A DNA stretch of 56,646 nucleotides from an uncultured bacterium (GCA_964581425.1 CAZOOM010000003.1:1-56646); one strand, 5' to 3'; positions 2,786-54,859 are shown, numbered from the stretch's first letter. Program-made: numbers and translations. The notes: generated by a model not told the origin, from the letters alone.

Positions 2786-3985
2786 ATGAAAACTCAGGAC
2801 GTTCAAAAACTTTACGACGATTACATTCTCCCTACATACGCAAGGCTGCCGCTTTGTTTGGTCAAAGGGAAGGGGGCCAAGGTCTGGGATCTTGAAGGTA
2901 AGGTCTACCTTGATTTTTTTCCGGGCTGGGCAGTTTCGGGAATCGGGCACAGCCATCCGGCCGTTGTGAATGCGATCAAGCATCAAGCCAAATCCATTCT
3001 TCACGTCTCAAATAACTTCCTCAATATTAAACAGGCGAGGCTTGCCGAGGAAATTGTACGATGCGGATTTCCTGGCCGAGTTTTTTTCTGCAACAGCGGA
3101 ACTGAAGCTACGGAAGGCGCGGTGAAGTTTGCCAGAAAATTTGGAAGTGATACAGGACGATTTGAAATCATCACGCTGACCTATTCTTTTCATGGACGGT
3201 CGTCAGCTGGAATTGCGGCCACGGCTCAGGATAAGGTCAGAAAGGGCTTTGATCCCATCCTTCCCGGATTTAAATATGCGGAGTTTAATGATCTTGATTC
3301 TGTAAAAAAGCAAATCACAGACAAGACAGTGGCTGTTTTTCTCGAGCCTGTTCAGGGAGAAGGGGGAGTGAATGTTGCAACTCCAGAATTCATGAAAGGA
3401 CTTCGTAAGATTTGTGATGAGAAAAATCTCCTGCTTATGCTCGACGAAGTCCAGTGTGGCATGGGACGGACCGGAAAAATGTTTGCTTACCAAAATTATG
3501 AGATTGAACCGGATGTGATGACACTGGCCAAAACTTTTGGTGGTGGCGTGCCGATTGGGGCTTTTGTAGTCCATAAAAAAATCCAAAAAGAGCTTTTTAC
3601 ACCAGGAACTCACGGCTCCACTTATGGTGGAAACCCATTGGTGTGCGCCGCGGCGCTTGCGGTGTTTAAAACGATCCAGCAAGAGAAGCTTTTGACTCAT
3701 GCTACGCAGTTGGGTAAGTATTTAGGAGAGAGGCTAGAGGCCATGAAAGCTCGATTTTCTGTGATTGAAAAAGTCAAAGGGATTGCTATGATGAGAGGCC
3801 TTTCCCTTAAGGAACCGGGGCAGGCGATTGTGGACCGGGCCCGGGAAAAGGGGCTTTTGATCAATTGTACGCAGGACAAGGTACTTCGAATCCTTCCTCC
3901 GATCAATATTTCAAAGAGCCTTCTGGATCAAGGACTTAAAATTCTCGAAAGTGTTTTTGAAGAATTGCAGGCAGCTAAAAAATGA
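2786..3985 (+). CDS. argD: Acetylornithine aminotransferase (class III PLP)
   Basis: Motifs seen are YILPTYARLP, FCNSGTEA, DEVQCGMGRTGK and TFGGG. The start is trimmed to ATG 2786 because the 2669 start would overlap argB by 100 nt. Confidence 0.9.
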   Translation: MKTQDVQKLYDDYILPTYARLPLCLVKGKGAKVWDLEGKVYLDFFPGWAVSGIGHSHPAVVNAIKHQAKSILHVSNNFLNIKQARLAEEIVRCGFPGRVFFCNSGTEATEGAVKFARKFGSDTGRFEIITLTYSFHGRSSAGIAATAQDKVRKGFDPILPGFKYAEFNDLDSVKKQITDKTVAVFLEPVQGEGGVNVATPEFMKGLRKICDEKNLLLMLDEVQCGMGRTGKMFAYQNYEIEPDVMTLAKTFGGGVPIGAFVVHKKIQKELFTPGTHGSTYGGNPLVCAAALAVFKTIQQEKLLTHATQLGKYLGERLEAMKARFSVIEKVKGIAMMRGLSLKEPGQAIVDRAREKGLLINCTQDKVLRILPPINISKSLLDQGLKILESVFEELQAAKK

Positions 3986-42620: not shown

Positions 42621-45600
42621 ATGTCGCGGACCAATTCATTGCAAACTGATTTTCTGTTTCCACCTTTTCTAAGAATCACAGCATTTCTCACAGCTTTTAT
42701 TTTTTCCTTCGAACAATTTTTTTATGGCGCTCCGCCGCAAGATCTCTTTGTTCCTGCAGCTTCCTCAGATACGCAGCCTACAGTTTCTTTATCTCAAGCG
42801 AACTCAGTTCGGGCTGTTAATAGCGTACCGACGCCAGTGGGTGCGGTTCCAATCAAAGATGGGACGGAGTTTTTAGCAAAAGACAGTCCTCTTTCTCCTG
42901 TGGAACCGACTCCTTCATCGAAGGTACTCGCGCCAAGACAAGAAATTAATAAGCCGCTTTCATCCGATAGCGAATTAGAGTTTTCTCAGAGGTATTTTTC
43001 AGATCAGCAAAAAACGGTGCGCTTAGCATCGCTTGAAAGTGTGTCAAGCCAGGCTGCTGCAACTCCAATCAAAGTATTGGCGCAGCGCACCGAGACGACT
43101 CCTGCTGGAAAAGTTTCCCGATTTATTGCGAGTGTTGCAACAGAGCCTGGAATTTCAGGTTTTACGGTTTCTTACAGTACCGACCTCATTAATTGGAAGG
43201 TCATTTCAGATTCTCAGTCAGGTTTAGCGATGGTTTGGGCACCTACATCCAGTGGAAAAATAATCTGGTATGACGATGGATCTCTGACCCCCGCGCTTGG
43301 ATCCATGCGCTTTTATCGATTTCTATCCGTGCCATTCGAAGCCAAGCTTGAGTTGCCTCCCAGTACTGTGAAATTAAGCGATGGTTCAATGATCGAATTC
43401 CAGAAGAATGGGGTGAAGGGTATTGCTATTTATGATGCACAAGGAAAACTTTTAGAAATCATTGACCATCCTGTTCCATTGGTAAAGCAGGAACAGGGGA
43501 TGTGGAATGTTTTAGCGAATGGTACTCGGGTCTATTTATCGGATGGAAAACCCTATGTGATTGAAATGACTGACGGAACCCAAATTACAAATTTTGTTTT
43601 GGATTCAAATAACAAATTTCAAGAAGCGCTCATTACCTATCCTGACGGAACCCGGGAGCAGATTTGGAAAGGGGCATTAATCCGCAGAATTCGAAGTGAC
43701 GGATGGGTTGAAGATTTTTTTCCGAATGGAAATAAGGTTCGAGAAATTTATCAAAACACTTTGCGAGAGTTCGCTTATCTTAAAGGGCCTCAGTCAATAG
43801 TGTTGGAGACGATTGTATTTGAAAACGATATTAAGCGCACCTACAACGCTTTAGGGATTCTCAAAGAGATTTCATTTGGTGACGGCCGAAAACTTGTTTA
43901 TGACATCGATTCAAATTTAGACGGAACTTTTGCTACCTTTAATAAGACCAAAAGTGTTCTTCCAGCTACTACGGATCCCAGATGGTCTCAGCACACGGAT
44001 GATTTAATCCAAGGCTATTATGATTTAAAAGGAAATCCAATCACACTTACGTTTCGTGATAAGACCCAGATTCATTTTGCAAACGGCCGTATTAATAGCA
44101 TTACGGATTCGTCTGGAAAAATCCGGTATTTTGAGTACATCTTAAATAAGGATCTAGTCACTGAAATCCATGTCCGCTGGTTGGAGGGGACTTCTCCGCC
44201 TACTGGTACAAACATTCCGATCAAGCCGACTTATTACGTTTATGACAATCAGGGAAAACTGAAGGGGGCTCAAACTGAAGAAGGATTTGTGACATTTGAT
44301 GCTTCTTCATCATCGGAAACAACACTCTTTCGTACAGCTGATGGCTCTTTACTGGAACTCACAGATAAAACTCTTCAGAGGATTTTCCTGAAAGACGGGA
44401 CAAGGGTGAGCGGGCTTGACTGGAATGGTACCCAGTTTACGGATCTTACTCGGATCACTGTGGATGGTTCACAAACCTCCTACAATGCTGAAAAAATCAC
44501 AGACCAAAAGAACGCTTCAGGAAGTATCGTTAATTATGACCTGTCTGAAAAACCAGATTTGGTTACCATGGAGGATGGACGAGTTTATCTTGTTACGAAT
44601 AAAGATCTTGGAAACGCTCAGAGCGAGCGTACTCTCAATCTTCAGACCATGATGTTTGCAGACGGTTCTCATCTTGAATTCAAGGACGGTGTAGTGGTTC
44701 GTTATGTTCAGAAAGTGAAGACTGAAATTACAGCGATAGCTGAGGCTCCGAAAAATCTTCCGGTAGGGCAGGTGTTTGTCCCAAAGCTTCGATTGGTTTC
44801 GGGTGAGCTTAGAAATGTCATTATCGAAGGAGCGGGACGGATTGTGAGCGGTGAGATTTTGATGAATGACGGCACCCAATATCTTTTTGAAAACAGAAAG
44901 ATTGCGCGTGAGATCACAGTCTCTGGCCAGATTCTATATTTTTCAAATACCCCGGCCAATCCGTTGCAGCTTTTTGAAAAAATCTCGGATCCTGATTTGG
45001 GAGACGCAGATTTAAGTGCAGTTTATTCTGCGGCTACTGATTTTTCAAAATTTACTTTGGAATTTAAGAAATCTGACGGATCAAGCCACAAAATCGCCCT
45101 TCAGGATTATTTAGTTCAGAACGGCCATGAGGCAATTTTGAATGCGCTTATGAAAGGGTTTAAACAGGATATCTTAAATGCCTCAAACGGTCAGTCTCGA
45201 TTTTTTGAGACAAACGATGGAAACCTCGCGGTCTCGATCCGTAAAGATGAGCGTTTTGGCGAAGTCCGTGAGCTTACTATGGATCTGAGAGCGAACTTTG
45301 GATTAGCGGGCTTTTATGCTGATTTTGACAATGGAGGACTCAATCTGACTGGTTATGATTTTGTTTCGATCCCTTACCGATCAGCCACTGCGCTTCCAGC
45401 AGGCACTAAAATCAAAGTCGAATTTAAACATGGTTGGAGTACTTTTACAACGGATACGGCTTATTCGGAATCTATTACGACTGACTGGCAGTATCTTCAA
45501 ATTCCGATTGTGAAGGATTATGGTCCTATCCGTCAGATGACGGTTGTCATTCTTGCTCCAAGCGGAGAGGCATTAAAAAACACCATCGAATTGGGTCCTC

Positions 45601-48600
45601 TATCCGGATTTCAAAGACGGGCAACTCAGGATTTTCAGTGGGCTGGTCTTTTTGGAAAAACCGAACTTGATATTCAAACTCTTCTCGTGGCTGAAGCGAA
45701 GAAATTGCCAACCGGTGGGACTTTGATTGAGGAAGAAGTGCTTACCGATTTCAAGGTGGATTCTAAAGGCCGCGTAGTGAGTGGTACTTTAAATCTGAAA
45801 GATGGCAGCACTCAATATTTTCAGGACGGAAAACTGAGTAAATGGGTGTTCCAAAACAGTAAAACCTATATTTATGAAAATGGGCTTGCTAAGTATGTTT
45901 TTTCTCTTATCGACGGCAAACTGACCCAGAGTGCTTTTTATTATGACATGGCTTTTAATGGCACCATCCGTTCGTTTGTTTTGGAAGATCAAGATGTGAG
46001 ACGTGAATTTTCAAACAGTGGGGAAATTCTTAAGCTTACAGCCAAAGGCTACATTGTCGGATTCAGAGATGGGAAAATAGACACGATTGAGGTGCAGAAT
46101 AAAGGCACCTGGAGAAATTTGATATTTGCCGCAGATGGGAATTTATTGAAAGCGGAGTTTGATTATCTGGATGATAAGGTTCTCGTGATGGATCTTGAGG
46201 CGGGGATTTATAAGGTAACAAAACCCGGAGGAATTACGGTGGAATACAAAGGTTCTTTTATTCAAGCAATCAATGTTAATACACCTAACGGTACAACAAA
46301 CACAAGAGTTGAATTTAAGTATACCGTCACATCTGACCAGAAACTTCTGGACGCGATTGCGATCGATACGGATCTTAAAACTGGCCAGACTCGTACCATG
46401 GCTCTTGCGGAGTTTCTGGCTCTTCCGGGCCGCGAGACTGAGCGGAATGAAATTTTGACCAAACCCAAAGTTGATGTCCTGAATTTAGCCAATGCTACAG
46501 GGAATGGGCTTTACAGCACGGGTGCTCTTGATTATCCCGCTCCTCAGTCCGGGGAAGGCAATTCCGTGGCTCATACGCCTAGACAGGAAGTTCAAGCGAC
46601 AGAGACTTTTACGTATCAGGAATCAAGCCCTAAGAGCAGTATTATCGGGATGTATATCAACCATAAGGATTCTAATCGGGGTTGGTATAACCCTTTCTCG
46701 TTTAATACAGGGTCTTCCAGCTCAAGCTATAATTTCCTTTCGATCACCATGCGCCAAGATGCTTCCATGTCATGGAATCAGGATTACCAGGTCAATGTCA
46801 AAGGAACAAATTTCAATCCTCTTTATTCTTTCCGTATTCCCGATTTATCTTCAAATTTTCATACGTTTATGTACTCCATGGAAGACCGGAGCGGAACCGA
46901 AGGTGAAATGACGCTTGAACTTATCCGGGAACACGACGGTTCCGGGAAAGCCGGTACAGTGTATCTGAAGGATGTTTCATACTGGTCAGTCATGAAAGTA
47001 AGCGATCAATTTTGGCAGGATCAGACCACTGTAACAGCGCAGCAGATGAAATTTCTGAAAATTGAAGCGGACCAATTGATGCGTGTAAACGCGAATGTCA
47101 CAAACAAGAAATCGGTTCAATATGACTCGCTTGCTGCCCTGTCCGATATTCCGACGAAACTTGTTTATCATGGGAAGACAGCGAATGACTTAACACTTCA
47201 GTCTTTTCTTAAAGCAGATGGATCCTTTGTGGAACTGACAGAAGATCAGCATGTTAGCAAGATGACCTTGGGCGACGGAACGGTTTACGAGTATCAAACC
47301 CAGGGATCTTCTGCCAAAGGCACCATTCAAGACCCCGCCATGGCAGGAGAAAGTTCAGATCACTTGGATTATCAATATGGAAATATCCGAACAATTAATC
47401 AAACGGACGGCAAAAAAATTTATTTTTCCTATGAAACAGATCCTGAGACAGGAGATGAAATCACAGTGATGAAGGATCCGGATACGCTTGAAGAAAGACG
47501 ATTTAAAGACGGCGAACTTTATGAGGTCCGGTCCGAAAATGGAATTCGCTCACGGTATCAATTTAAAGAAGGAGAACTTTTGGCAGCGGATACAACTTTT
47601 CGTAATCGAGTCATGGACAGTGTGAGTTATGAGTACCGGGATGGCGAAACCTTTTCTACGGACGAACGAGGGACAACCTGGGTCTTTGATAAGGACGGAA
47701 ATCTACTTCGGCATCTGACAAGGGACGGATATTTGTATGTGTATTCCAGTACAAGCCAAGAATTTGATTCTGGAGTAAGTACCAACGGGACAAATCTTAA
47801 TTTTGATCCGACAAAAGAAAATTTGCCCAAAACCCAGGAAGCTTTTGTGTTAGCCGCGAACAATTATAAGCGGGAGTTTTTATTGGGCACGGATTTTCAC
47901 GCAGTAAGTCTCGGAGGATATGAAAGCTCGAACGGTGCGCAGCTTACTTTTGATTTCAAAAAAGGCGGATTGGGAGAAATTAAACTGCCGGAGGGAGATC
48001 ATGCTGTCAATCTCATCTTCGGTGACAACCAGGAAATACAGAGCGGACAAATTCAATTTCGCGATGGAAGTCTAATGAATATCCAAGAAGGAATCCCTGT
48101 GGAGTATCGTACCGCACAAGGAACCTTCTACAAGGCGCCTCTTGACCTAGCACAATTTGACAAGATTGAAGTTTTGGAAAATCCGGATAAAACATTGGGA
48201 GGATGGAAACTTGAAAAAGGAGATAGCTGGTATATTTATGATGCAGATGGGACTCTCAAACAATATGAGAATTCAAGCGGGGAATCTTATCTTTTCACAA
48301 AAGATCCAAATCAGGGAACCGTTACGCAGAGGTTCAGGCAAAGATCTTCTCAAGAAGGTGTTTTTTATCCTCAAGAAATCAAATTTCAATATCTTTCCAA
48401 TAAAATTGTTTTTTCGAATGATGACCAAGTCTTGGCTGAGCAGGGAGGAAATGGTTTTATCGTTTCGGTTTACAAACCCGAGTTTAACCGCTGGGATACC
48501 TTTTCAGGGAATATGGCTGCCGACGGGGATCGGCTGCAATTAAGACTCATTTTAGAAGATGTCCAGCCTGATCAATCGATTGCCTTAGCCACCCGGGATC

Positions 48601-51600
48601 CGAATTTTTCAAAAGCTGAACCCGAATTATTAAGAATACTTCAATCCTTTGGGTCCTCAAAAGCAGAATCGGCAGCTAAAGGCGCTAATCCGGGATCCAC
48701 TTTTACATTATTAGGGCGGCCGGGATTGTCTTCAGGTCAGGCGCGTGAATCAATCGGCGTTGATTCCTGGGCTTCCTATGATGAAAAGTTTACGCCTTTT
48801 ACTGGACAAAAGTTTTTTAAACAGGTTCCTTATCAACTGGTTGCAAATGAAAGTCGCGATGGCTGGGTATTTACTCAATATGCCCGTTTTGTTCAGCTTT
48901 ATTCTTCTCTCAAACTTCAACCAGATCTTCAGATCCTCACGGTTTATAATAGCAAAGATGAGATCGTTTTTTCAAAACGTGTGGATGGAGCAGTTTCATT
49001 TTACGAGCACGGAAAAATTCGGGAAACATTTAATCGCCGCGGGGAGCTAATCAGCGAGCACCACTACCAGTGTCCGTCGACGGGTTGTGCGAGTGCAGAT
49101 GATATGACCCTGATTTGGGTGGAATTGAAGAAAGCACGGCGAGACTTTGAAGATGAAACTCGCAAAATGAATTCTCAAATTGAAAGGGCAGAGCTGGATG
49201 CACTCATGCAGCTTGGTAATACCAAGGAACCTGCGAGGCTTAATATTATTCAAACCATGAATGAAGCGATAGTCGAATATGATAAAGCCCTTTCTTATCT
49301 GGAAAGCGTTAGATTTCAACAGGTCAAAGTCTGCCGCAATTTTCTTTTTTTTAAATCCTGTGATGAAGTCACGGTTGAAGTCCCTGGAGTGAAAGAGCAA
49401 ATCGACCGTTTTCAGTCGGAACGTTCCGGAGTCATTCAGACAGCTCAGACGCAGCTTGCAAATTTAGACGGTGAGATTGCTAAAAAGGAAAAAGAAATTA
49501 AGGATGCTGTAAACGAGCAAAGGCGGGAACTGGAAAAGAAAAAACAGGAGTATGAGAACGATATTCTTCGTTCGGAAATCGAGCCGGTCCTGATCGATTT
49601 TTTTCGCCGTCTGCTCGGGCGTGATCCTTCCTCAGAAGAATTGAATACTTGGATTGAAAAATCAAAAACCAATCAACGGCTTGATATTACAGCTTTGACT
49701 TCAGATTTAAATAAAAAAGCGCAAAGTGAAAACCGCCGTGTAGAAATCAATCAAATTATTGAACGCGTGCGGACTTTACTCGAGACTTATTTGAAGGCAT
49801 CTGATTCCGAGCGGCTTGCCATGCTGGATACTTATCATATCAATCATGATCTTGCCGTGGAATTGGACCAAACCGACAAAAATCTTATTCTTGAATGGCT
49901 GCAAAAAAGAGACCTGCATTTTGGATACTCAGCCTTTTTGTCACTCAAAGAAACTTTGCTGTCTCAAGGAATTTCCGTGGATGTGAAAACCTTGGCGGAA
50001 GAGACTCTTTTTATCGACATCCTTACCGGAGTGATCAATCAATTTACTGAAGGGGAAGTCCTGATATCCCTTTATGCGCTGATGCAATCAGCGAAAATCC
50101 ATGGTGCTGAATATTCGGGGGTGAAATACAGCTATGAAGATCTGCTGTCCCTTTACCGTCAGGCCTGTCCGGATGTCAAAGATCCTTGCAAGAAGCGTGT
50201 GATGGCTCATATAGGCGAGGATCATTTTGTGGTCATCACATCCGTAACGGATCATGAAGTGAAATATTTAGAAACGATTCGCGGCAGATCAGGAGAAATG
50301 GTAACGATCAGCAAAGAGCAATTTCTGAAAGTTTGGGACTTGAAAGGAAGCGGCGGGTATTTGATGGTTAATCAAGCGGATGCCGCTCCAACCAAGATTT
50401 TGGACCGTAAGACAACTTTGAAAATTCGGGGGGCCTGCTGGCCTTTATTTTTTGTCATTCTTTTCTGGACATCGGTGGCGCTTTCGGTGGCCAGTATGAT
50501 TGTTTCGGTTTACAGTCCTAAATGGGGAAAAATTCTAGGATACGCTGCTTTGGTTGCAAGCATTGTTTCCATTGTCGGTAGTGTTGGACAGCTTGCGATT
50601 CAGGGACTTAAAAGCGGACTTTCTTATATCACAAGCCACAGTCTTCTTGAAATGGTCAAAGCCGGAATTTCCCAGATCGGTAAACTCATCATGCTGCCTG
50701 TCAAATTTATCGGGAGGTTATTTCAAAATGGCTTCCAATTTTTAAAGGATGCTTACCGAACAGGACTTGAAAAACTTGGGTCTGGGATTACCCATCTGAG
50801 AGGATATTTGTCAACCGGACAAGGAGCGGTCTTGAAAGATGCCTCAGGGAAAATCCTTCTCAATTCCAAAGGGGAAGCCATCCGCGCATTTACCGGCACT
50901 CAAACAGCGGCGCGTCAGCTTTTATCAGTCGGACTTAATTATGGTGTTTCCTATGGACTCGAAGGAATGGGTTTAGATCCAATGATTGCCCGCTTGAGCG
51001 GGGCCTTTGTGAGCGGCGGTGTGCTGGGAGTGGGAGGTGAAGGCGCGAGTTTTATCAAATCCGGACTGGAAGGTTTTCTGCTTCAGGGAGTCAATGAAAT
51101 GGCGCTTCATCTTGGAGTGCCTCCGCCCATGACTGCCGGACTTTCGTTTTTAACGCAGGGCGCACTGAGCGCCTATTTTGATTCCACGCTGACGTTAAAA
51201 GATGCCTACAAACAACTCCTTCCTGAAACCATGGGCAAGATCACTCAAGGGGGTTTGGAACTCCTGGCCCAGGATTTAAAAATCGATCCCTGGATCACTC
51301 AGCTCATCAGCGTCCCGCTTGGGTTATGGAACCAAAACTTTACCCGAGGCGCTCTCCAGCTTGGATCTCAGTTGAACAGCCAGAGTGTTCTCGATATAGG
51401 GGGAAGGAGTTTGAGGGATATACTTGATGACCGAGGAATCGCGGGGATCGGAGCATCAATTGGGCTGGATGCGATCGGAGCACCTGCCGTGTTGCAGAAC
51501 TTTATTCCCGGTTTAATCGGCCAGTTGATTGGCGATGCGGAAGGAGGGGGTCCCGATCCTGGTGTGGTGGATGATTCGCACTCCAATATTCTCTCAAAAA

Positions 51601-53192
51601 TAGGGAACGGAATTCAAAAATTCGGGAAAGGGTTTACAAAAGTTGTCGGAACGGTGCTGGATTTTGGAAAGAAAGTAGTGAGCGGTGCTGGCTCGATCAC
51701 AGCGGAGGGATTTAAAAAAGGAGTTGGAGCCTTCCGTGCTATTTTCAGCCGCGAGACGCAGGAAAATATTATCAAGGAAGAAACGGGCTTACTGGTAGGG
51801 CATGCAACCAAGATTGGGAATAAATGGGAGTATCAAATTGATGATACTCGAATCAACTATGATTCCCAAACGGGAGTTTTAGAGGAAAATTTTGGGGTGG
51901 GCGGGGTTGCGAGGATAGAAGGTCTTGGCCAGGATGAAGCAGGAAACTTATTTTACGAAAAATTGACGTCTGAAAATGCGATGCCGGGCGGGACTCTGAA
52001 GCAGAGTTATGACAAAGGACATCTTATCAGTTGGACTTTTGACGCCGGAGGTCAATCAACGATTCAATTTTCAGGGAAGGACTCGAATGGATTTGATGCG
52101 AATGGAAATCTGATCAATGGTTCGATCGATTATTCCGAGACAGGAACAAAATATAAAATTTCTGATGGGTACGTCCAGGATGTCGAAATCAACTGGAATG
52201 AAAGTGATTTGGGAACGACGCCTCCGGCTCATATTAAAGAACCGTGGTTTGAAAAATTTGCCTTGTCAAAACCTGCGGATGCAGTCGATTCATGGCTGGA
52301 TAATGCTGCAGATTGGCTCATTGGGCAAACAGAAAATAAGATAGGCTGGATTTTAGTATCACCCGCTGAGATTAATTTTGCGAAGCTTTTAATAAAGGCC
52401 ATAACCACGGATGTGGTGCGTTTTGGTGGTGAAATGCCCGCGATGGCAGACAATTTGAGCGGGATGTGGGCTGCTTGGAAAGCCGGGAAGCCGGTTGACT
52501 TAGCATTTAAATTCTTTGCCTTAAGTGGTAATATTATCACCGAACTTGGCCGTGCGCTTGTGATCGGCAGTATCGCAAAAGGGCTCGCGACGGCAGCTAT
52601 TAAGGGCTCCGCGCCTCTGATTGGCGGACTGCTTGGTCTGAATGAACAGGGATTTGCAAGAATCGCGGCGGAAGATCTCTCAGCCTGGATGTATCGATTA
52701 GCTCATAGCGACGATCCCAAACTCCTTGAAGAGTTAATGCAATTTCTCAAGCGCAATCCATCCATGATGGAGGATTTTCGCAGTTTTATTAAGGATCCAG
52801 ATGAAATTATTAATGCCCTTAAGAAGGGGATTATTAATTTAGAAGATGCAGGCCGGATTCCGTTTAAGAAGGGTGAGGTATTAAAAAGTTTAGTAGATGA
52901 TGCAGTCACTAAATTTGAAAAAACTGGGCGCCAGACCACAGTTTTAGGTAATTACCCTGAGAATATGATCGGTTTAGACAAAAAGGGTATGAATGTTTTA
53001 AACCTTCCTAAGGGGGAATGGTCATGGGGAAAAAATATAGATTGGCTAAATGATGCCATTAATCGAGGTGATGATATATTGCTCGCCACTGAAACACCAA
53101 GCATTCCATCATCATACGCGGATGAGTTGAAATATTTATTTGAAAAGGGGTATGAACAGTATGGTAATTGGCTTATTAAGGTGAAAAAATGA
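42621..53192 (+). CDS. 3,523-aa membrane-anchored YD-repeat giant protein with C39-like domain, TM/glycine-rich segment and C-terminal variable (toxin-like) module
   Basis: It is a single uninterrupted ORF with an N-terminal hydrophobic anchor (aa ~17-36). It has many xDG(T/S)..(Y/F) beta-hairpin repeats, including clear YD repeats (YEYRDGETF..WVFDKDGNLL..DGYLYVY). Other parts are two beta-sandwich-like modules, a coiled coil, a DUF4214-like FFRRLLGRDPSSEELNTWI, a C39-like block (..EDHFVVITSV..), 2 TM helices, a Gly-rich region and a distinct ~110-aa tail. Confidence 0.9.
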   Translation: MSRTNSLQTDFLFPPFLRITAFLTAFIFSFEQFFYGAPPQDLFVPAASSDTQPTVSLSQANSVRAVNSVPTPVGAVPIKDGTEFLAKDSPLSPVEPTPSSKVLAPRQEINKPLSSDSELEFSQRYFSDQQKTVRLASLESVSSQAAATPIKVLAQRTETTPAGKVSRFIASVATEPGISGFTVSYSTDLINWKVISDSQSGLAMVWAPTSSGKIIWYDDGSLTPALGSMRFYRFLSVPFEAKLELPPSTVKLSDGSMIEFQKNGVKGIAIYDAQGKLLEIIDHPVPLVKQEQGMWNVLANGTRVYLSDGKPYVIEMTDGTQITNFVLDSNNKFQEALITYPDGTREQIWKGALIRRIRSDGWVEDFFPNGNKVREIYQNTLREFAYLKGPQSIVLETIVFENDIKRTYNALGILKEISFGDGRKLVYDIDSNLDGTFATFNKTKSVLPATTDPRWSQHTDDLIQGYYDLKGNPITLTFRDKTQIHFANGRINSITDSSGKIRYFEYILNKDLVTEIHVRWLEGTSPPTGTNIPIKPTYYVYDNQGKLKGAQTEEGFVTFDASSSSETTLFRTADGSLLELTDKTLQRIFLKDGTRVSGLDWNGTQFTDLTRITVDGSQTSYNAEKITDQKNASGSIVNYDLSEKPDLVTMEDGRVYLVTNKDLGNAQSERTLNLQTMMFADGSHLEFKDGVVVRYVQKVKTEITAIAEAPKNLPVGQVFVPKLRLVSGELRNVIIEGAGRIVSGEILMNDGTQYLFENRKIAREITVSGQILYFSNTPANPLQLFEKISDPDLGDADLSAVYSAATDFSKFTLEFKKSDGSSHKIALQDYLVQNGHEAILNALMKGFKQDILNASNGQSRFFETNDGNLAVSIRKDERFGEVRELTMDLRANFGLAGFYADFDNGGLNLTGYDFVSIPYRSATALPAGTKIKVEFKHGWSTFTTDTAYSESITTDWQYLQIPIVKDYGPIRQMTVVILAPSGEALKNTIELGPLSGFQRRATQDFQWAGLFGKTELDIQTLLVAEAKKLPTGGTLIEEEVLTDFKVDSKGRVVSGTLNLKDGSTQYFQDGKLSKWVFQNSKTYIYENGLAKYVFSLIDGKLTQSAFYYDMAFNGTIRSFVLEDQDVRREFSNSGEILKLTAKGYIVGFRDGKIDTIEVQNKGTWRNLIFAADGNLLKAEFDYLDDKVLVMDLEAGIYKVTKPGGITVEYKGSFIQAINVNTPNGTTNTRVEFKYTVTSDQKLLDAIAIDTDLKTGQTRTMALAEFLALPGRETERNEILTKPKVDVLNLANATGNGLYSTGALDYPAPQSGEGNSVAHTPRQEVQATETFTYQESSPKSSIIGMYINHKDSNRGWYNPFSFNTGSSSSSYNFLSITMRQDASMSWNQDYQVNVKGTNFNPLYSFRIPDLSSNFHTFMYSMEDRSGTEGEMTLELIREHDGSGKAGTVYLKDVSYWSVMKVSDQFWQDQTTVTAQQMKFLKIEADQLMRVNANVTNKKSVQYDSLAALSDIPTKLVYHGKTANDLTLQSFLKADGSFVELTEDQHVSKMTLGDGTVYEYQTQGSSAKGTIQDPAMAGESSDHLDYQYGNIRTINQTDGKKIYFSYETDPETGDEITVMKDPDTLEERRFKDGELYEVRSENGIRSRYQFKEGELLAADTTFRNRVMDSVSYEYRDGETFSTDERGTTWVFDKDGNLLRHLTRDGYLYVYSSTSQEFDSGVSTNGTNLNFDPTKENLPKTQEAFVLAANNYKREFLLGTDFHAVSLGGYESSNGAQLTFDFKKGGLGEIKLPEGDHAVNLIFGDNQEIQSGQIQFRDGSLMNIQEGIPVEYRTAQGTFYKAPLDLAQFDKIEVLENPDKTLGGWKLEKGDSWYIYDADGTLKQYENSSGESYLFTKDPNQGTVTQRFRQRSSQEGVFYPQEIKFQYLSNKIVFSNDDQVLAEQGGNGFIVSVYKPEFNRWDTFSGNMAADGDRLQLRLILEDVQPDQSIALATRDPNFSKAEPELLRILQSFGSSKAESAAKGANPGSTFTLLGRPGLSSGQARESIGVDSWASYDEKFTPFTGQKFFKQVPYQLVANESRDGWVFTQYARFVQLYSSLKLQPDLQILTVYNSKDEIVFSKRVDGAVSFYEHGKIRETFNRRGELISEHHYQCPSTGCASADDMTLIWVELKKARRDFEDETRKMNSQIERAELDALMQLGNTKEPARLNIIQTMNEAIVEYDKALSYLESVRFQQVKVCRNFLFFKSCDEVTVEVPGVKEQIDRFQSERSGVIQTAQTQLANLDGEIAKKEKEIKDAVNEQRRELEKKKQEYENDILRSEIEPVLIDFFRRLLGRDPSSEELNTWIEKSKTNQRLDITALTSDLNKKAQSENRRVEINQIIERVRTLLETYLKASDSERLAMLDTYHINHDLAVELDQTDKNLILEWLQKRDLHFGYSAFLSLKETLLSQGISVDVKTLAEETLFIDILTGVINQFTEGEVLISLYALMQSAKIHGAEYSGVKYSYEDLLSLYRQACPDVKDPCKKRVMAHIGEDHFVVITSVTDHEVKYLETIRGRSGEMVTISKEQFLKVWDLKGSGGYLMVNQADAAPTKILDRKTTLKIRGACWPLFFVILFWTSVALSVASMIVSVYSPKWGKILGYAALVASIVSIVGSVGQLAIQGLKSGLSYITSHSLLEMVKAGISQIGKLIMLPVKFIGRLFQNGFQFLKDAYRTGLEKLGSGITHLRGYLSTGQGAVLKDASGKILLNSKGEAIRAFTGTQTAARQLLSVGLNYGVSYGLEGMGLDPMIARLSGAFVSGGVLGVGGEGASFIKSGLEGFLLQGVNEMALHLGVPPPMTAGLSFLTQGALSAYFDSTLTLKDAYKQLLPETMGKITQGGLELLAQDLKIDPWITQLISVPLGLWNQNFTRGALQLGSQLNSQSVLDIGGRSLRDILDDRGIAGIGASIGLDAIGAPAVLQNFIPGLIGQLIGDAEGGGPDPGVVDDSHSNILSKIGNGIQKFGKGFTKVVGTVLDFGKKVVSGAGSITAEGFKKGVGAFRAIFSRETQENIIKEETGLLVGHATKIGNKWEYQIDDTRINYDSQTGVLEENFGVGGVARIEGLGQDEAGNLFYEKLTSENAMPGGTLKQSYDKGHLISWTFDAGGQSTIQFSGKDSNGFDANGNLINGSIDYSETGTKYKISDGYVQDVEINWNESDLGTTPPAHIKEPWFEKFALSKPADAVDSWLDNAADWLIGQTENKIGWILVSPAEINFAKLLIKAITTDVVRFGGEMPAMADNLSGMWAAWKAGKPVDLAFKFFALSGNIITELGRALVIGSIAKGLATAAIKGSAPLIGGLLGLNEQGFARIAAEDLSAWMYRLAHSDDPKLLEELMQFLKRNPSMMEDFRSFIKDPDEIINALKKGIINLEDAGRIPFKKGEVLKSLVDDAVTKFEKTGRQTTVLGNYPENMIGLDKKGMNVLNLPKGEWSWGKNIDWLNDAINRGDDILLATETPSIPSSYADELKYLFEKGYEQYGNWLIKVKK

Positions 53193-53611
53193 ACAGCGAT
53201 TATGGAATGGATAAATACGTGGATTTGATCAAGAAATATTTTTTATTCTTAGAGCAAGAATATAAAGGCCACTTTATTAGCGCAGAAAGGAAAAGTTTGA
53301 TTTTCTATATTCTTGAGAAATCTCAAGTTCGATTTGCATTAGATAGAAATCAGCTATTTCTCAGCATTCAACCTTGTGGCGTTGATGAATGGTTTGATTT
53401 GAGTATAGTCATTCTAGCTAAAGATCCCCAATCTAATTTTCGTTATGAATATTTAACTGAGCAAAACTACGAAAAGTGTATCCAAAATCTTTCTACTGCG
53501 CTTGCGAAATATGGAAAAGATCTTCTTGGTGGTGATGCAACAATTCAACAAGCCTATATTGCAGCTGGAAAAGAAATATGGAAAAAAATCAAAGCTAAAG
53601 ACGAAAAATGA
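53189..53611 (+). CDS. Small cytoplasmic protein, candidate cognate immunity protein
   Basis: Its ATG overlaps the giant gene's stop as ATGA. It is 140 aa with no signal peptide. The KKYFLFLEQEY..F N-terminus is a pattern common in immunity proteins. The gene is AT-rich. Confidence 0.6.
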   Translation: MNSDYGMDKYVDLIKKYFLFLEQEYKGHFISAERKSLIFYILEKSQVRFALDRNQLFLSIQPCGVDEWFDLSIVILAKDPQSNFRYEYLTEQNYEKCIQNLSTALAKYGKDLLGGDATIQQAYIAAGKEIWKKIKAKDEK

Positions 53612-53772
53612 AACTCTGGCAAAAAGGGCTTTGGATTGTTTTGATAGGCGGGCTGGTCAATGCCGTTCTCATCCAATCGAATACCGGTGGTTTCTTTCGC
53701 GAACTTGACCGCCTCGCCATCCTGGCTGGTTTTGGCATCACTTTTTTCGGTCTCATCAAGAAAAAGAAATAA
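53608..53772 (+). CDS. 54-aa two-TM peptide (below the ORF track's size cutoff)
   Basis: Its ATG overlaps the previous stop as ATGA. The sequence is MKLWQKGLWIVLIGGLVNAVLIQSNTGGFFRELDRLAILAGFGITFFGLIKKKK, two hydrophobic helices with a KKKK tail. Confidence 0.5.
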   Translation: MKLWQKGLWIVLIGGLVNAVLIQSNTGGFFRELDRLAILAGFGITFFGLIKKKK

Positions 53773-53797: not shown

Positions 53798-53865
53798 GAC
53801 AGGCACCGAAGCGGGGACGGTCAGAACTTTTTAAGATTTACAATGAAAAAGAAGCCGTGCCTGTC
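53798..53865. repeat. GACAGGCAC / GTGCCTGTC 9-bp inverted repeat, related to the gpsA hairpin core
   Basis: The arms are at 53798-53806 and 53857-53865. They share the GGGACAGGC/GCCTGTCCC core with 40762-40802. A GTGCCtGGCAC palindrome lies at 53875-53885. Confidence 0.45.
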
Positions 53866-54118
53866 CCTCCTTGAGTGCCTGGCACCTTCTATTTTTGATT
53901 TTAATGAGCGCACAGATATCGAGTTCTTAAAATGGGTAAACCAATTCGATGGCTGGAAGAAAGATGCTCTGCTATTCGTTAAATCCGTGGCTGATTCGAT
54001 TTATTTCTCCATTAATAATCAAAATAAATCACCGGAGGATGCTGCCAAAACAGGAATATGGGAGGCGTTGGATGCTATGTATAAAAAACAGAAATCTCAG
54101 AATGGCAAGGGACCTTAA
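53843..54118 (+). CDS. 91-aa hypothetical protein
   Basis: The first ATG (53843) within the ORF running 53660..54118. I recognised no domain. It is AT-rich. Its 5' end overlaps an inverted-repeat arm, so the start is uncertain. Confidence 0.4.
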   Translation: MKKKPCLSLLECLAPSIFDFNERTDIEFLKWVNQFDGWKKDALLFVKSVADSIYFSINNQNKSPEDAAKTGIWEALDAMYKKQKSQNGKGP

Positions 54119-54120
54119 AA

Positions 54121-54630
54121 GTGCTAAAAAAAACGATTAAGATTATATTAGGGATAATTATTGCCTTACTCTGTACATTATTTGTATTAACATTTCATTA
54201 TGGGAATTTAGCGCACTATCTTTTATTTTTGTCTATTCAAAATAGAAATCCAACCACTTTAACGGTCGATCAAAAAGTAATTTTATTTCATAGATATATA
54301 GAAGCCAAACAACTTGGGAAGGCGCTCAAGTTGGGATCTTATTTTGAGCACGATATTAAGAATCTGAGTAAGTCTGAACGGGTCTACATAGCTGGCAACC
54401 TTGGGTTGATTATGAGGGCTACCGGCGGAGTAAATCACGAACTGGAATTATATGAAGATTTCTTTAAGACGGATTATCCGATCTTATACCATGCATTCAG
54501 AGCGGCTGTTTTTAAATATAACAATGATATGACTACAGCAAGCCACGAGCTAGAAATCGCTCGGAGTATGGCCAGAGAAGAGAATGATTCCATAACTCTT
54601 TCCGTAATCAATGATGTGCGAGTAAGCTAA
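54121..54630 (+). CDS. N-terminally membrane-anchored helical (TPR-like?) protein
   Basis: It has a GTG start and a TM helix (IILGIIIALLCTLFVLTF). The rest is helical. It is very AT-rich. Confidence 0.5.
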   Translation: MLKKTIKIILGIIIALLCTLFVLTFHYGNLAHYLLFLSIQNRNPTTLTVDQKVILFHRYIEAKQLGKALKLGSYFEHDIKNLSKSERVYIAGNLGLIMRATGGVNHELELYEDFFKTDYPILYHAFRAAVFKYNNDMTTASHELEIARSMAREENDSITLSVINDVRVS

Positions 54631-54706: not shown

Positions 54707-54859
54707 GTGTCAAGACGAGGAAGATATCCCAAAGAGTTTAAGCTTGAAGCGGTACGGTTGTTGAATGAAGGGCAGAAACCAATTTCGGAAATAGCTATGG
54801 AATTGGGAGTTAAACGGACGCTCCTTTATCGAAAAAAGGGGTCAAGACTTCAATTGTAA
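54707..54859 (+). pseudogene. IS3-family transposase OrfA N-terminal stub (HTH_Tnp_1), truncated
   Basis: (M)SRRGRYPKEFKLEAVRLLNEGQKPISEIAMELGVKRTLLYR then runs into the left inverted repeat of the adjacent element and stops. There is no OrfB or DDE part anywhere nearby. Confidence 0.7.

What the first reader, a model, noticed from the sequence alone, without database searches (positions are those of the whole stretch)
52870..53772. Candidate toxin-immunity cassette: C-terminal module plus two translationally coupled small ORFs
The last ~110 aa of the giant protein read ...TTVLGNYPENMIGLDKKGMNVLNLPKGEWSWGKNIDWLNDAINRGDDILLATETP...ELKYLFEKGYEQYGNWLI. They look like a small alpha/beta domain unrelated to the preceding Gly-rich region. 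I cannot assign it to a named toxin family. Its stop overlaps the ATG of a 140-aa cytoplasmic protein (ATGA at 53189-53192). That protein's stop in turn overlaps the ATG of an unannotated 54-aa 2-TM peptide (ATGA at 53608-53611). My spot counts of G+C per 60 nt fall from 35/60 at 51001-51060, to 22-24/60 at 53041-53160, to 16-19/60 at 53161-53280. Such a drop is typical of horizontally swapped CT/immunity modules.
Basis: partly seen in the sequence, partly recalled or inferred. Interest (0 to 1): 0.75.

Follow-up and report, generated by a model that had tools for sequence, protein, structure and literature searches.

The report
Swappable toxin–immunity cassette ending a giant protein
The last ~111 residues of a 3,523-residue surface protein are a widespread but unnamed toxin-type end module, followed by its likely antidote gene and a small conserved membrane-peptide gene, so this is a bacterial-warfare cassette of a known kind on a rare, undescribed carrier.

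Summary

- The last ~89-111 aa belong to an unannotated domain family with about 100 clusters. It sits at the extreme C-terminus of RHS, PT-HINT, PT-TG and PAAR-like proteins in several phyla.
- Close relatives of the giant protein share its core, and a newly recognised helical "pre-toxin" module, up to aa ~3409. Beyond that point they carry unrelated C-terminal domains and unrelated downstream genes.
- Copies of the window-type tail are followed by small cytoplasmic proteins that fall into recurrent families. The 140-aa ORF is a weak, collinear member of one of them.
- The 54-aa two-helix membrane peptide is real. It is conserved (28-63% identity) after five cassettes carrying three different tail types. 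It has normal G+C, so it is a conserved 3' flank or partner and not swapped cargo.

No toxin activity, fold or immunity binding could be assigned, because both structure models were too poor. This is a new variant of polymorphic toxin systems, probably from an Omnitrophota-like bacterium.

The parts
42621..53192 (+). Giant ORF (3,523 aa), the carrier protein. It has an N-terminal hydrophobic signal-like segment (aa 11-29), a long beta-rich region with YD-like motifs (seen by eye only), a coiled-coil stretch, two TM helices (aa 2610-2660), a Gly-rich region, the pre-toxin module and the C-terminal toxin-type module.
   Evidence: No Pfam, NCBIfam or PDB sequence match. Only three homologues among 5.8 billion proteins.
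47598..52025 (+). Conserved family core (aa 1660-3135), shared with the metagenomic homologues P0001, P0002 and P0003.
   Evidence: blastp: 36% identity over 1,518 aa to P0001; 45% over aa 2134-2906 to P0002; 38% over aa 2303-2900 to P0003.
52200..52847 (+). Pre-toxin module (aa ~3194-3409), helical, with a conserved 'GW(I/V)L..A....IK..TD..R(F/L)G' stretch, a hydrophobic 'ALVIGS.AKGLA' stretch, and a terminal 'ALKKGxxxxxD' motif. It is shared by proteins that then carry different C-terminal domains.
   Evidence: P0006, P0007, P0022 and the L006 ORF. No Pfam model.
52857..53192 (+). C-terminal toxin-type module (aa 3413-3523). The core domain is aa ~3435-3523 (nt 52923-53189). All family-conserved residues are present: G3443, N3472, R3482, D3484, E3502, L3506 and G3510.
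   Evidence: No Pfam, NCBIfam or PDB model. G+C 0.366.
53189..53611 (+). 140-aa cytoplasmic ORF, the candidate cognate immunity protein. Its start overlaps the giant ORF's stop (ATGA), with AAGGTG 6 nt upstream.
   Evidence: G+C 0.329, GC3 0.26, the lowest in the window. Weak full-length collinear similarity to L004_135 and L009_143, which follow window-type tails. No other homologue.
53608..53772 (+). 54-aa two-TM peptide ending in KKKK. It is a conserved third gene of the cassette and is independent of tail type. Its start overlaps the stop of the 140-aa ORF (ATGA).
   Evidence: Homologues lie in the same position in L004, L006, L007 and L008, at 28-63% identity. Invariant residues are L16, N18, G28, R31, L33, R35 and K52. 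G+C is normal at 0.461. No Pfam or PHROG family.
53843..54630 (+). Second low-G+C island: ORFs 53843..54118 (91 aa) and 54121..54630 (169 aa, N-terminal TM). These are possibly orphan immunity-type genes. Membership of the cassette is not shown.
   Evidence: No family hits and no similarity to immunity-position ORFs of the related loci.
54834..55895 (+). REP-associated/IS200-like tyrosine transposase gene (54901..55887), bracketed by 31-nt inverted repeats. Homologous genes flank related toxin cassettes elsewhere. A link to the cassette is an inference.

Best explanation
This is a polymorphic-toxin cassette at the 3' end of a rare giant envelope protein.

Shown:
- The giant protein's last ~111 aa are a self-contained module. 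It belongs to a widespread, unnamed domain family that otherwise ends RHS, PT-HINT, PT-TG and PAAR-like toxins.
- Relatives of the giant protein keep the core and a helical pre-toxin module up to an 'ALKKGxxxxxD' junction (aa ~3409). After it they carry other end domains, each with its own downstream gene.
- The tail plus the 140-aa ORF form the most AT-rich 755 nt of the window.
- The 54-aa two-TM peptide gene is conserved 3' of cassettes with different tails.

Inferred:
- The protein is exported through its N-terminal signal-like segment and held by two TM helices (aa 2610-2660). Its C-terminal domain is delivered into a neighbouring cell, where it acts on a cytoplasmic target.
- The candidate catalytic residues are N3472, R3482, D3484 and E3502. 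No His or Cys is conserved. A nucleic-acid- or nucleotide-directed enzyme is my guess, held with low confidence.
- The 140-aa cytoplasmic protein, made by translational coupling, binds and neutralises the domain in the producer and its kin.
- The conserved pre-toxin module and the two-TM gene are the fixed flanks between which tail and immunity units are exchanged.
- The peptide itself most likely partners the pre-toxin module at the membrane, either by blocking self-entry or by aiding release.
For: Tail family:
- The exhaustive HMMER search gave 104 representatives at E <= 1e-3, nearly all matching only query residues ~300-388.
- 93 of 100 matches end within 18 aa of the carrier's C-terminus.
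- Carriers include RHS_repeat (9), PT-HINT (5), PT-TG (3), DUF6443 (3), DUF4280 and DUF6531. Two are named 'RHS repeat-associated' by their sources.
- Conserved residues are G, N, RGD and E..L..G.

Swap:
- Comparing the window with L008, the flanks are conserved (47.6% over aa 2907-3409; two-TM peptide 63%). The tail and immunity gene between them are unrelated.
- Other ends occur in P0022 and L006. P0001-3 carry hydrolase-type ends followed by signal/TM + TPR proteins.

Immunity position:
- L004_135 and L009_143 are 36% identical (E = 2e-20). Both follow window-type tails.
- L012_133, L013_131 and the read-through part of P0037 are 45-90% identical. They follow the Bacteroidota RHS subtype of the tail.
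- The 140-aa ORF against L004_135: Smith-Waterman score 49 versus 28.9 +/- 4.8 for shuffles (10 of 3,000 reach it), aligned over the full length. hhalign E = 0.047.

Other evidence:
- Composition. G+C also dips at the tail and immunity gene in L008, L004 and L007.
- Tight packing or overlap of the three genes in all loci.
- An array of orphan modules in L004, one with a near-threshold PT-TG match of 22.6 bits against a cutoff of 23.5.
Against: - No toxin activity, fold or characterised homologue is known for the tail. There is no Pfam, NCBIfam, PDB or PADLOC match.
- Single-sequence AlphaFold models were unusable (pLDDT 50 and 43).
- Similarity of the 140-aa ORF to other immunity-position proteins is statistically marginal. 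It has no other homologue in 5.8 billion proteins.
- More distant copies of the tail are followed by unrelated proteins (L005, L007, L010).
- The carrier has no recognisable secretion or delivery domain, and no RHS, TPS or PAAR match. Its export route and topology are therefore inferred from hydropathy alone.
- Only four or five loci support the pre-toxin and two-TM architecture. Most are short metagenomic contigs.
Confidence: 0.75

Rival explanations
1. The C-terminal module is not a toxin. It would be a mobile binding, anchoring or sorting domain that happens to end many surface proteins, and the 140-aa ORF would be an unrelated small gene.
For: There is no homology to any characterised toxin. 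The domain is small (~89 aa) and has no His or Cys. The carrier lacks known toxin-delivery domains.
Against: The domain sits exactly where toxin domains sit: after the RHS core, PT-HINT and PT-TG modules. It is exchanged for other end domains at a fixed junction. It occurs as orphan copies beside transposases. It is always followed by a small cytoplasmic ORF whose family tracks the tail subtype. Invariant acidic and amide residues suggest catalysis.
Confidence: 0.1
2. The 54-aa membrane peptide is the true immunity factor, for example against a membrane-active step. The 140-aa protein would be a chaperone or adaptor for the tail rather than its inhibitor.
For: The peptide is the best-conserved gene of the trio, at 63% identity to L008. 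Small two-TM proteins serve as immunity factors for membrane-acting bacteriocins (general knowledge). Homology of the 140-aa ORF is weak.
Against: The peptide is the same after three unrelated tail types, so it cannot give tail-specific protection. The middle gene is the one that changes with the tail. RHS-borne copies of the tail have the middle-type gene but no such peptide (L005, L012, L013).
Confidence: 0.07
3. The G+C drop reflects only the Lys/Ile/Asn/Tyr-rich composition of two small proteins. There was no horizontal exchange, and the tail and ORF were vertically inherited with the gene.
For: Both products are rich in AT-coded residues. There is only one window, with no strain-level comparison.
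Against: GC3 also falls, to 0.33 and 0.26 against 0.41-0.56 upstream. The break coincides with the point where homology to P0006 ends. The 3' flank returns to normal G+C and is conserved. The same dip occurs in L008, L004 and L007.
Confidence: 0.05

Closest known systems
Rhs/YD-repeat polymorphic toxins with downstream immunity genes (RhsA/RhsI, WapA/WapI, T6SS Rhs effectors)
   Same: Both have a variable C-terminal toxin domain demarcated from a conserved body, an immunity gene immediately 3', and orphan modules nearby. The window's tail domain itself occurs on bona fide RHS proteins.
   Different: The giant protein gives no Pfam RHS_repeat match and has no DPxGL-type core end. It has no PAAR, VgrG or T6SS context. 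It has two TM helices and a Gly-rich region before a different, helical pre-toxin module, plus a conserved third gene.
CdiA/CdiI contact-dependent inhibition systems
   Same: Both have a very large surface protein, a short conserved pre-toxin motif (VENN in CdiA, 'ALKKGxxxxxD' here) after which CT domains diverge, a tightly linked immunity gene, and orphan CT/immunity arrays.
   Different: There is no TPS domain, no FHA repeats, no VENN motif, and no cdiB-like gene upstream, where GpsA and a peroxiredoxin lie instead.
Colicin-type operons (toxin - immunity - lysis/release gene)
   Same: Gene order is the same: toxin end, small immunity gene, then a very small membrane-protein gene. The genes are tightly coupled.
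   Different: Lysis proteins are lipoproteins with a lipobox Cys. The 54-aa peptide has no Cys and two TM helices and matches no lysis or holin family. The toxin here is the end of a 3,523-aa envelope protein.
Omnitrophota long/giant surface proteins (West-Roberts et al. 2023, bioRxiv 10.1101/2023.11.21.568195; 2026 preprint 10.64898/2026.06.07.730766)
   Same: Those proteins have TM anchors near the C-terminus of a very long, beta-rich extracellular protein. The only genome-resolved relative of the cassette is a Ca. Omnitrophota MAG.
   Different: A term search of those papers finds no polymorphic-toxin or immunity cassette described. The C39-like domain they report is not detectable here by Pfam or a PDB profile. 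At 3.5 kaa, this protein is far smaller than the 'giants'.

Membership tests
Polymorphic toxin systems (sensu Zhang et al. 2012, PMC3482391) | Homologous carriers share the N-terminal and central regions but carry unrelated C-terminal domains after a fixed junction. | tested here: met
   P0006, P0022, the L006 ORF and P0001-3 compared with the giant protein.
Polymorphic toxin systems | The same C-terminal domain is found at the end of otherwise unrelated carrier or trafficking architectures. | tested here: met
   RHS, PT-HINT, PT-TG, DUF6443 and DUF4280 carriers. 93 of 100 copies lie within 18 aa of the C-terminus.
Polymorphic toxin systems | A small immunity gene lies immediately downstream and co-varies with the C-terminal domain. 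| tested here: met
   Family A (L004_135 and L009_143, +/- the 140-aa ORF) and family B (L012_133, L013_131, P0037c) follow tail subtypes. TPR proteins follow hydrolase-type ends. Other ORFs follow other ends.
Polymorphic toxin systems | The C-terminal domain is toxic and is neutralised by the cognate immunity protein. | not testable with these tools
   This needs expression and rescue experiments. The structure models were too poor for docking.
Polymorphic toxin systems | A recognisable secretion or trafficking domain at the N-terminus. | tested here: inconclusive
   Only a signal-like hydrophobic segment at aa 11-29. No Pfam trafficking domain.
Rhs/YD-repeat toxins | RHS/YD repeats (PF05593) and an RHS core ending in a DPxGL-type motif before the toxin. 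| tested here: not met
   No RHS_repeat match in the giant protein at E <= 0.1. P0001 matches only at E = 0.65. YD-like motifs are seen by eye only.
CdiA/CdiB contact-dependent inhibition | TPS secretion domain, FHA repeats, VENN pre-toxin motif and a CdiB transporter gene. | tested here: not met
   No such Pfam matches. No VENN motif in the translation. The upstream genes are housekeeping.
Any named Pfam/NCBIfam toxin domain (Tox-*, Ntox*, and others) | Profile match of the tail or of its homologues. | tested here: not met
   The tail has no match at E <= 10 apart from noise. None of 103 homologues shares a toxin-domain family. NCBIfam gives nothing. A PDB profile search gives nothing.
Holins / bacteriocin release (lysis) proteins, for the 54-aa peptide | Family profile match; for lysis proteins, a lipobox Cys. 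| tested here: not met
   There is no Cys in the peptide. Only one insignificant Phage_holin_2 hit (E = 0.04, 1 of 5 members) and no PHROG holin. The shape (two TM helices plus a basic tail) is holin-like by inspection only.

The most novel reading that the evidence does not exclude
The cassette defines a new three-part delivery and immunity logic. In it, a previously unrecognised helical pre-toxin module and a conserved two-TM peptide form a fixed, co-evolving pair. The peptide would act as a tail-independent gatekeeper that blocks self-intoxication at the membrane, or as a release factor. Between these two elements, enzymatically novel toxin and immunity units are exchanged, possibly with the help of the adjacent REP-associated tyrosine transposases. 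This would give Omnitrophota-like, possibly predatory or episymbiotic, bacteria a contact weapon unlike Rhs, CDI or T6SS/T7SS effectors. The ~89-aa tail would be a new toxin fold or activity.
Probability: 0.3. Interest if true: 0.7.

Novelty: new variant of a known kind. Interest (0 to 1): 0.55.

Why it matters
The finding adds four things:
1. An unannotated toxin-type domain family that is spread across several bacterial lineages. Confirmed examples are Bacteroidota, Gammaproteobacteria and Omnitrophota, with about 100 clusters at 50% identity.
2. A new carrier and pre-toxin architecture for polymorphic toxins, in a lineage suspected of predatory or host-dependent lifestyles. In that lineage the function of very long surface proteins is an open question.
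3. A conserved third gene whose role is unknown. It could be general immunity or a release factor.
4. A clean natural "conserved flank, swapped cargo, conserved flank" example that is directly testable by expression.

It does not overturn any concept. It extends a well-known one.

Tried and rejected
- **Word-indexed searches.** The search with the last 175 aa found nothing. The search with the 140-aa ORF found only itself. A whole-protein query timed out.
- **Profile libraries.** Pfam, NCBIfam, PADLOC and PDB sequence searches found nothing significant for the tail, the 140-aa ORF, the peptide or the downstream ORFs. The PADLOC C3a168 hit for the 140-aa ORF (15.5 bits, E = 0.002, unknown function) was judged noise. 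So was the AphA 'RGDSIYFVT' hit (E = 0.15).
- **Structure prediction.** Single-sequence AlphaFold2 models of the tail and the 140-aa ORF reached pLDDT 50 and 43. They were too poor for fold search, so no fold search was run.
- **Pattern scan with the 43-sequence tail alignment.** A 9-sequence alignment found only two genome loci. The metagenome scan with the pre-toxin alignment found one locus.
- **169-aa ORF (54121..54630) as a relative of the TPR immunity-type proteins of P0001-3.** Rejected: only the N-terminal TM aligns.
- **C39-peptidase-like look of aa ~2430-2560, and RHS identity of the N-terminal repeats.** Neither was confirmed by Pfam or a PDB profile.
- **Immunity families A and B as one family.** Rejected by hhalign.
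- **Extra copies of the tail or the peptide in the window or other loci.** None found.
- **L015 and L011.** These contigs are too short to show downstream genes.


Full report
**1. The observation**

The window holds a 3,523-aa ORF (42621..53192, + strand). Its stop overlaps the start of a 140-aa ORF (ATGA at 53189-53192). That ORF's stop overlaps the start of a 54-aa ORF (ATGA at 53608-53611).

The 140-aa product has no hydrophobic segment. The 54-aa product has two (aa 8-22 and 36-50) and a KKKK end.

Composition, measured properly:
- The stretch from the tail to the end of the 140-aa ORF (52857-53611) has G+C 0.346, against 0.444 +/- 0.025 for windows of equal size. It lies in the lowest 0.02% of the 56.6-kb window (z = -4).
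- GC3 falls to 0.33 and 0.26.
- The 54-aa ORF is back at 0.461.
- A three-segment likelihood fit places the breaks at 52782 and 53647. Only 1 of 200 block shuffles reached the observed likelihood ratio.

One correction applies: the tail is preceded by a ~215-aa helical module, not directly by the Gly-rich region.

**2. Context**

Upstream are ordinary chromosomal genes: UvrA, FtsH, HrcA, DnaJ, GpsA and a peroxiredoxin. There is no T6SS, TPS or other toxin-export gene.

The giant protein matches no Pfam, NCBIfam or PDB sequence. Hydropathy shows a signal-like N-terminal segment and two TM helices at aa 2610-2660.

Only three relatives exist among 5.8 billion proteins, all metagenomic fragments. 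They align to aa 1660-3135, 2134-2906 and 2303-2900, and then diverge. Their ends resemble an alpha/beta hydrolase (by eye). Each is followed, with overlapping stop and start, by a protein with a signal or TM segment plus TPR repeats.

**3. The tail is a mobile C-terminal domain of polymorphic toxins**

A word-indexed search with the last 175 aa found nothing. An exhaustive HMMER search of 1.84 billion cluster representatives with aa 3135-3523 found 104 proteins at E <= 1e-3.
- Nearly all match only the last ~89 aa (TGRQTTVLGNYP...WLIKVKK).
- In 93 of 100, the match ends within 18 residues of the C-terminus. The proteins range from 48 to 3,413 aa.
- Their other domains are RHS_repeat (9), PT-HINT (5), PT-TG (3), DUF6443 (3), DUF4280 and DUF6531. 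Two carry source names of the 'RHS repeat-associated' kind, one from a Flavihumibacter MAG.
- A Sulfurifustis MAG has the domain after a canonical Rhs core end.

The domain has invariant G, E and G residues and near-invariant V, N, R, D and L residues. In the giant protein these are G3443, N3472, R3482, D3484, E3502, L3506 and G3510, and all are present. No Pfam, NCBIfam or PDB profile covers it.

**4. The junction and the swap**

- P0006 (803 aa) is 47.6% identical to the giant protein from aa 2907 to 3409. It then has an unrelated ~150-aa end.
- P0022 and the L006 ORF share aa ~3194-3409 and carry two further unrelated ends.
- P0007, P0008, P0010 and P0011 share the pre-tail region and the window-type tail.

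Homology stops right after a conserved 'ALKKGxxxxxD' motif. Tails of the window type then begin '(I/V)PF(K/R)(K/A)G', about 111 aa from the end.

The module at aa ~3194-3409 therefore behaves as a new pre-toxin module.

**5. The downstream genes**

*Immunity position.*
- In a Ca. Omnitrophota MAG (L004), a window-type tail (P0007) is followed by a 135-aa ORF and a 79-aa two-TM ORF.
- The closest tail (P0009, 52% identity) is followed by a 143-aa ORF that is 36% identical to the L004 one (E = 2e-20).
- The window's 140-aa ORF aligns with these over its whole length, but weakly. Smith-Waterman score is 49 against 28.9 +/- 4.8 for shuffles, and 10 of 3,000 shuffles reach it. hhalign gives E = 0.047. 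Shared motifs are F.FL..EY, L.KY...L.G(D/N) and EWKKI.
- The Bacteroidota RHS subtype of the tail is followed by a second family: L012_133, L013_131 and the read-through part of P0037, at 45-90% identity. That family is unrelated to the first.
- More distant tails are followed by other small proteins (L005, L007, L010).
- The immunity-position proteins read in full here lack signal peptides by inspection. The hydrolase-type ends, by contrast, pair with signal- or TM-bearing TPR proteins. This difference in location fits cytoplasmic versus envelope targets.

*The 54-aa peptide.*
- Homologues lie directly after the immunity-position gene in L004, L006, L007 and L008. Identity is 28-63%, with an invariant Asn in TM1 and a G..R(E/D)L.R loop.
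- Those cassettes carry three different tail types and four or five different middle genes.
- The peptide is absent after the hydrolase-type homologues and after RHS-borne copies of the tail.
- It thus travels with the pre-toxin module, not with the tail.
- It matches no Pfam or PHROG family.

Window versus L008 gives the clearest picture. The flanks are conserved (47.6% and 63% identity) around non-homologous cargo. G+C goes 0.507 -> 0.402 -> 0.355 -> 0.446 in L008, mirroring the window.

**6. Mechanism**

Shown: modular exchange of the tail plus the middle gene between conserved flanks; the tail's membership of a family that ends polymorphic toxins; and tight coupling of the three genes.

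Inferred:
- Export occurs via the N-terminal segment, with anchoring by the two TM helices.
- The tail is delivered into a neighbouring cell.
- The target is cytoplasmic, attacked by an enzyme using N, R, D and E residues. The alternating beta/alpha secondary-structure pattern comes only from the poor model. A nucleic-acid- or nucleotide-directed activity is a low-confidence guess.
- The 140-aa protein neutralises the tail.
- The peptide partners the pre-toxin module at the membrane, either as tail-independent protection against self-entry or as a release aid.

**7. Comparison with known systems**

The cassette works like Rhs and CDI polymorphic toxin systems, and it meets their comparative-genomic criteria. 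It fails the membership tests for Rhs (no RHS repeats or core), for CdiA (no TPS, FHA, VENN or CdiB), and for every named toxin domain.

The toxin - immunity - small membrane protein order recalls colicin operons, but the peptide is not a lipoprotein.

Papers on Omnitrophota long proteins describe TM anchors and C39-like domains near the C-terminus. A term search of those papers finds no toxin/immunity cassettes. A C39-like domain is not detectable here.

**8. Verdict**

- Novelty: a new variant of a known kind. The new elements are an unnamed tail family, a new carrier and pre-toxin module, and a conserved third gene.
- Limits: no activity or fold could be assigned, homology of the 140-aa ORF is weak, and the related loci are few and short.

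Noticed in passing
window 54834-55895 (gene 54901..55887); also L004 2112-3017 and 5022-5609; L008 538-1194 (minus strand): A REP-associated/IS200-like tyrosine transposase gene with a DnaA-C-like HTH is bracketed by 31-nt inverted repeats that are 97% complementary (54834-54864 and 55865-55895). The left arm lies in the 3' end of an IS3-like OrfA fragment (54707..54859). Homologous Y1 transposase genes (42% identity to L004's) lie next to toxin cassettes or orphan modules in the two related loci with enough flank. This suggests a possible role in generating orphan modules.
   Followed up: partly
window 53843-54630: This is the second-lowest G+C island of the whole window (53916-54315, G+C 0.325). 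It holds a 91-aa ORF and a 169-aa ORF with an N-terminal TM helix. Neither has a family match or any similarity to immunity-position proteins of related loci. They may be orphan immunity-type genes.
   Followed up: partly
L004 27-8015 (Ca. Omnitrophota MAG JAJVIE010000013.1): An array of three start-less or orphan toxin modules separated by two tyrosine-transposase genes. The first has an end with a near-threshold PT-TG match plus a 140-aa ORF. The second is pre-toxin + window-type tail + 135-aa ORF + two-TM peptide. The third is a 789-aa core fragment with a hydrolase-type end.
   Followed up: partly
L001 8143-8895, L002 4206-5063, L003 3642-4136: The three core homologues of the giant protein end in an alpha/beta-hydrolase-like domain (GxSxG-like and 'GAGHxD' motifs, seen by eye). 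Each is followed by a homologous protein with a signal or TM segment plus TPR repeats. This looks like a lipase-type effector with an envelope-located immunity protein.
   Followed up: partly
window 49900-50300 (giant protein aa ~2430-2560): A stretch conserved in all family members ('RDLHFGQSAF...IAHIGEDHFVVIT...') looks like a C39-type peptidase or pseudo-peptidase domain by eye, as reported for Omnitrophota giant proteins. Neither Pfam nor a PDB profile search confirms it.
   Followed up: yes
window 56102-56557: A 151-aa lipoprotein-like ORF (signal segment plus Cys) has sub-threshold SnoaL_3 and Imm-NTF2 (NTF2-fold immunity protein) matches (E = 0.003-0.01). It lies downstream of the transposase in another low-G+C stretch (0.355).
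   Followed up: no
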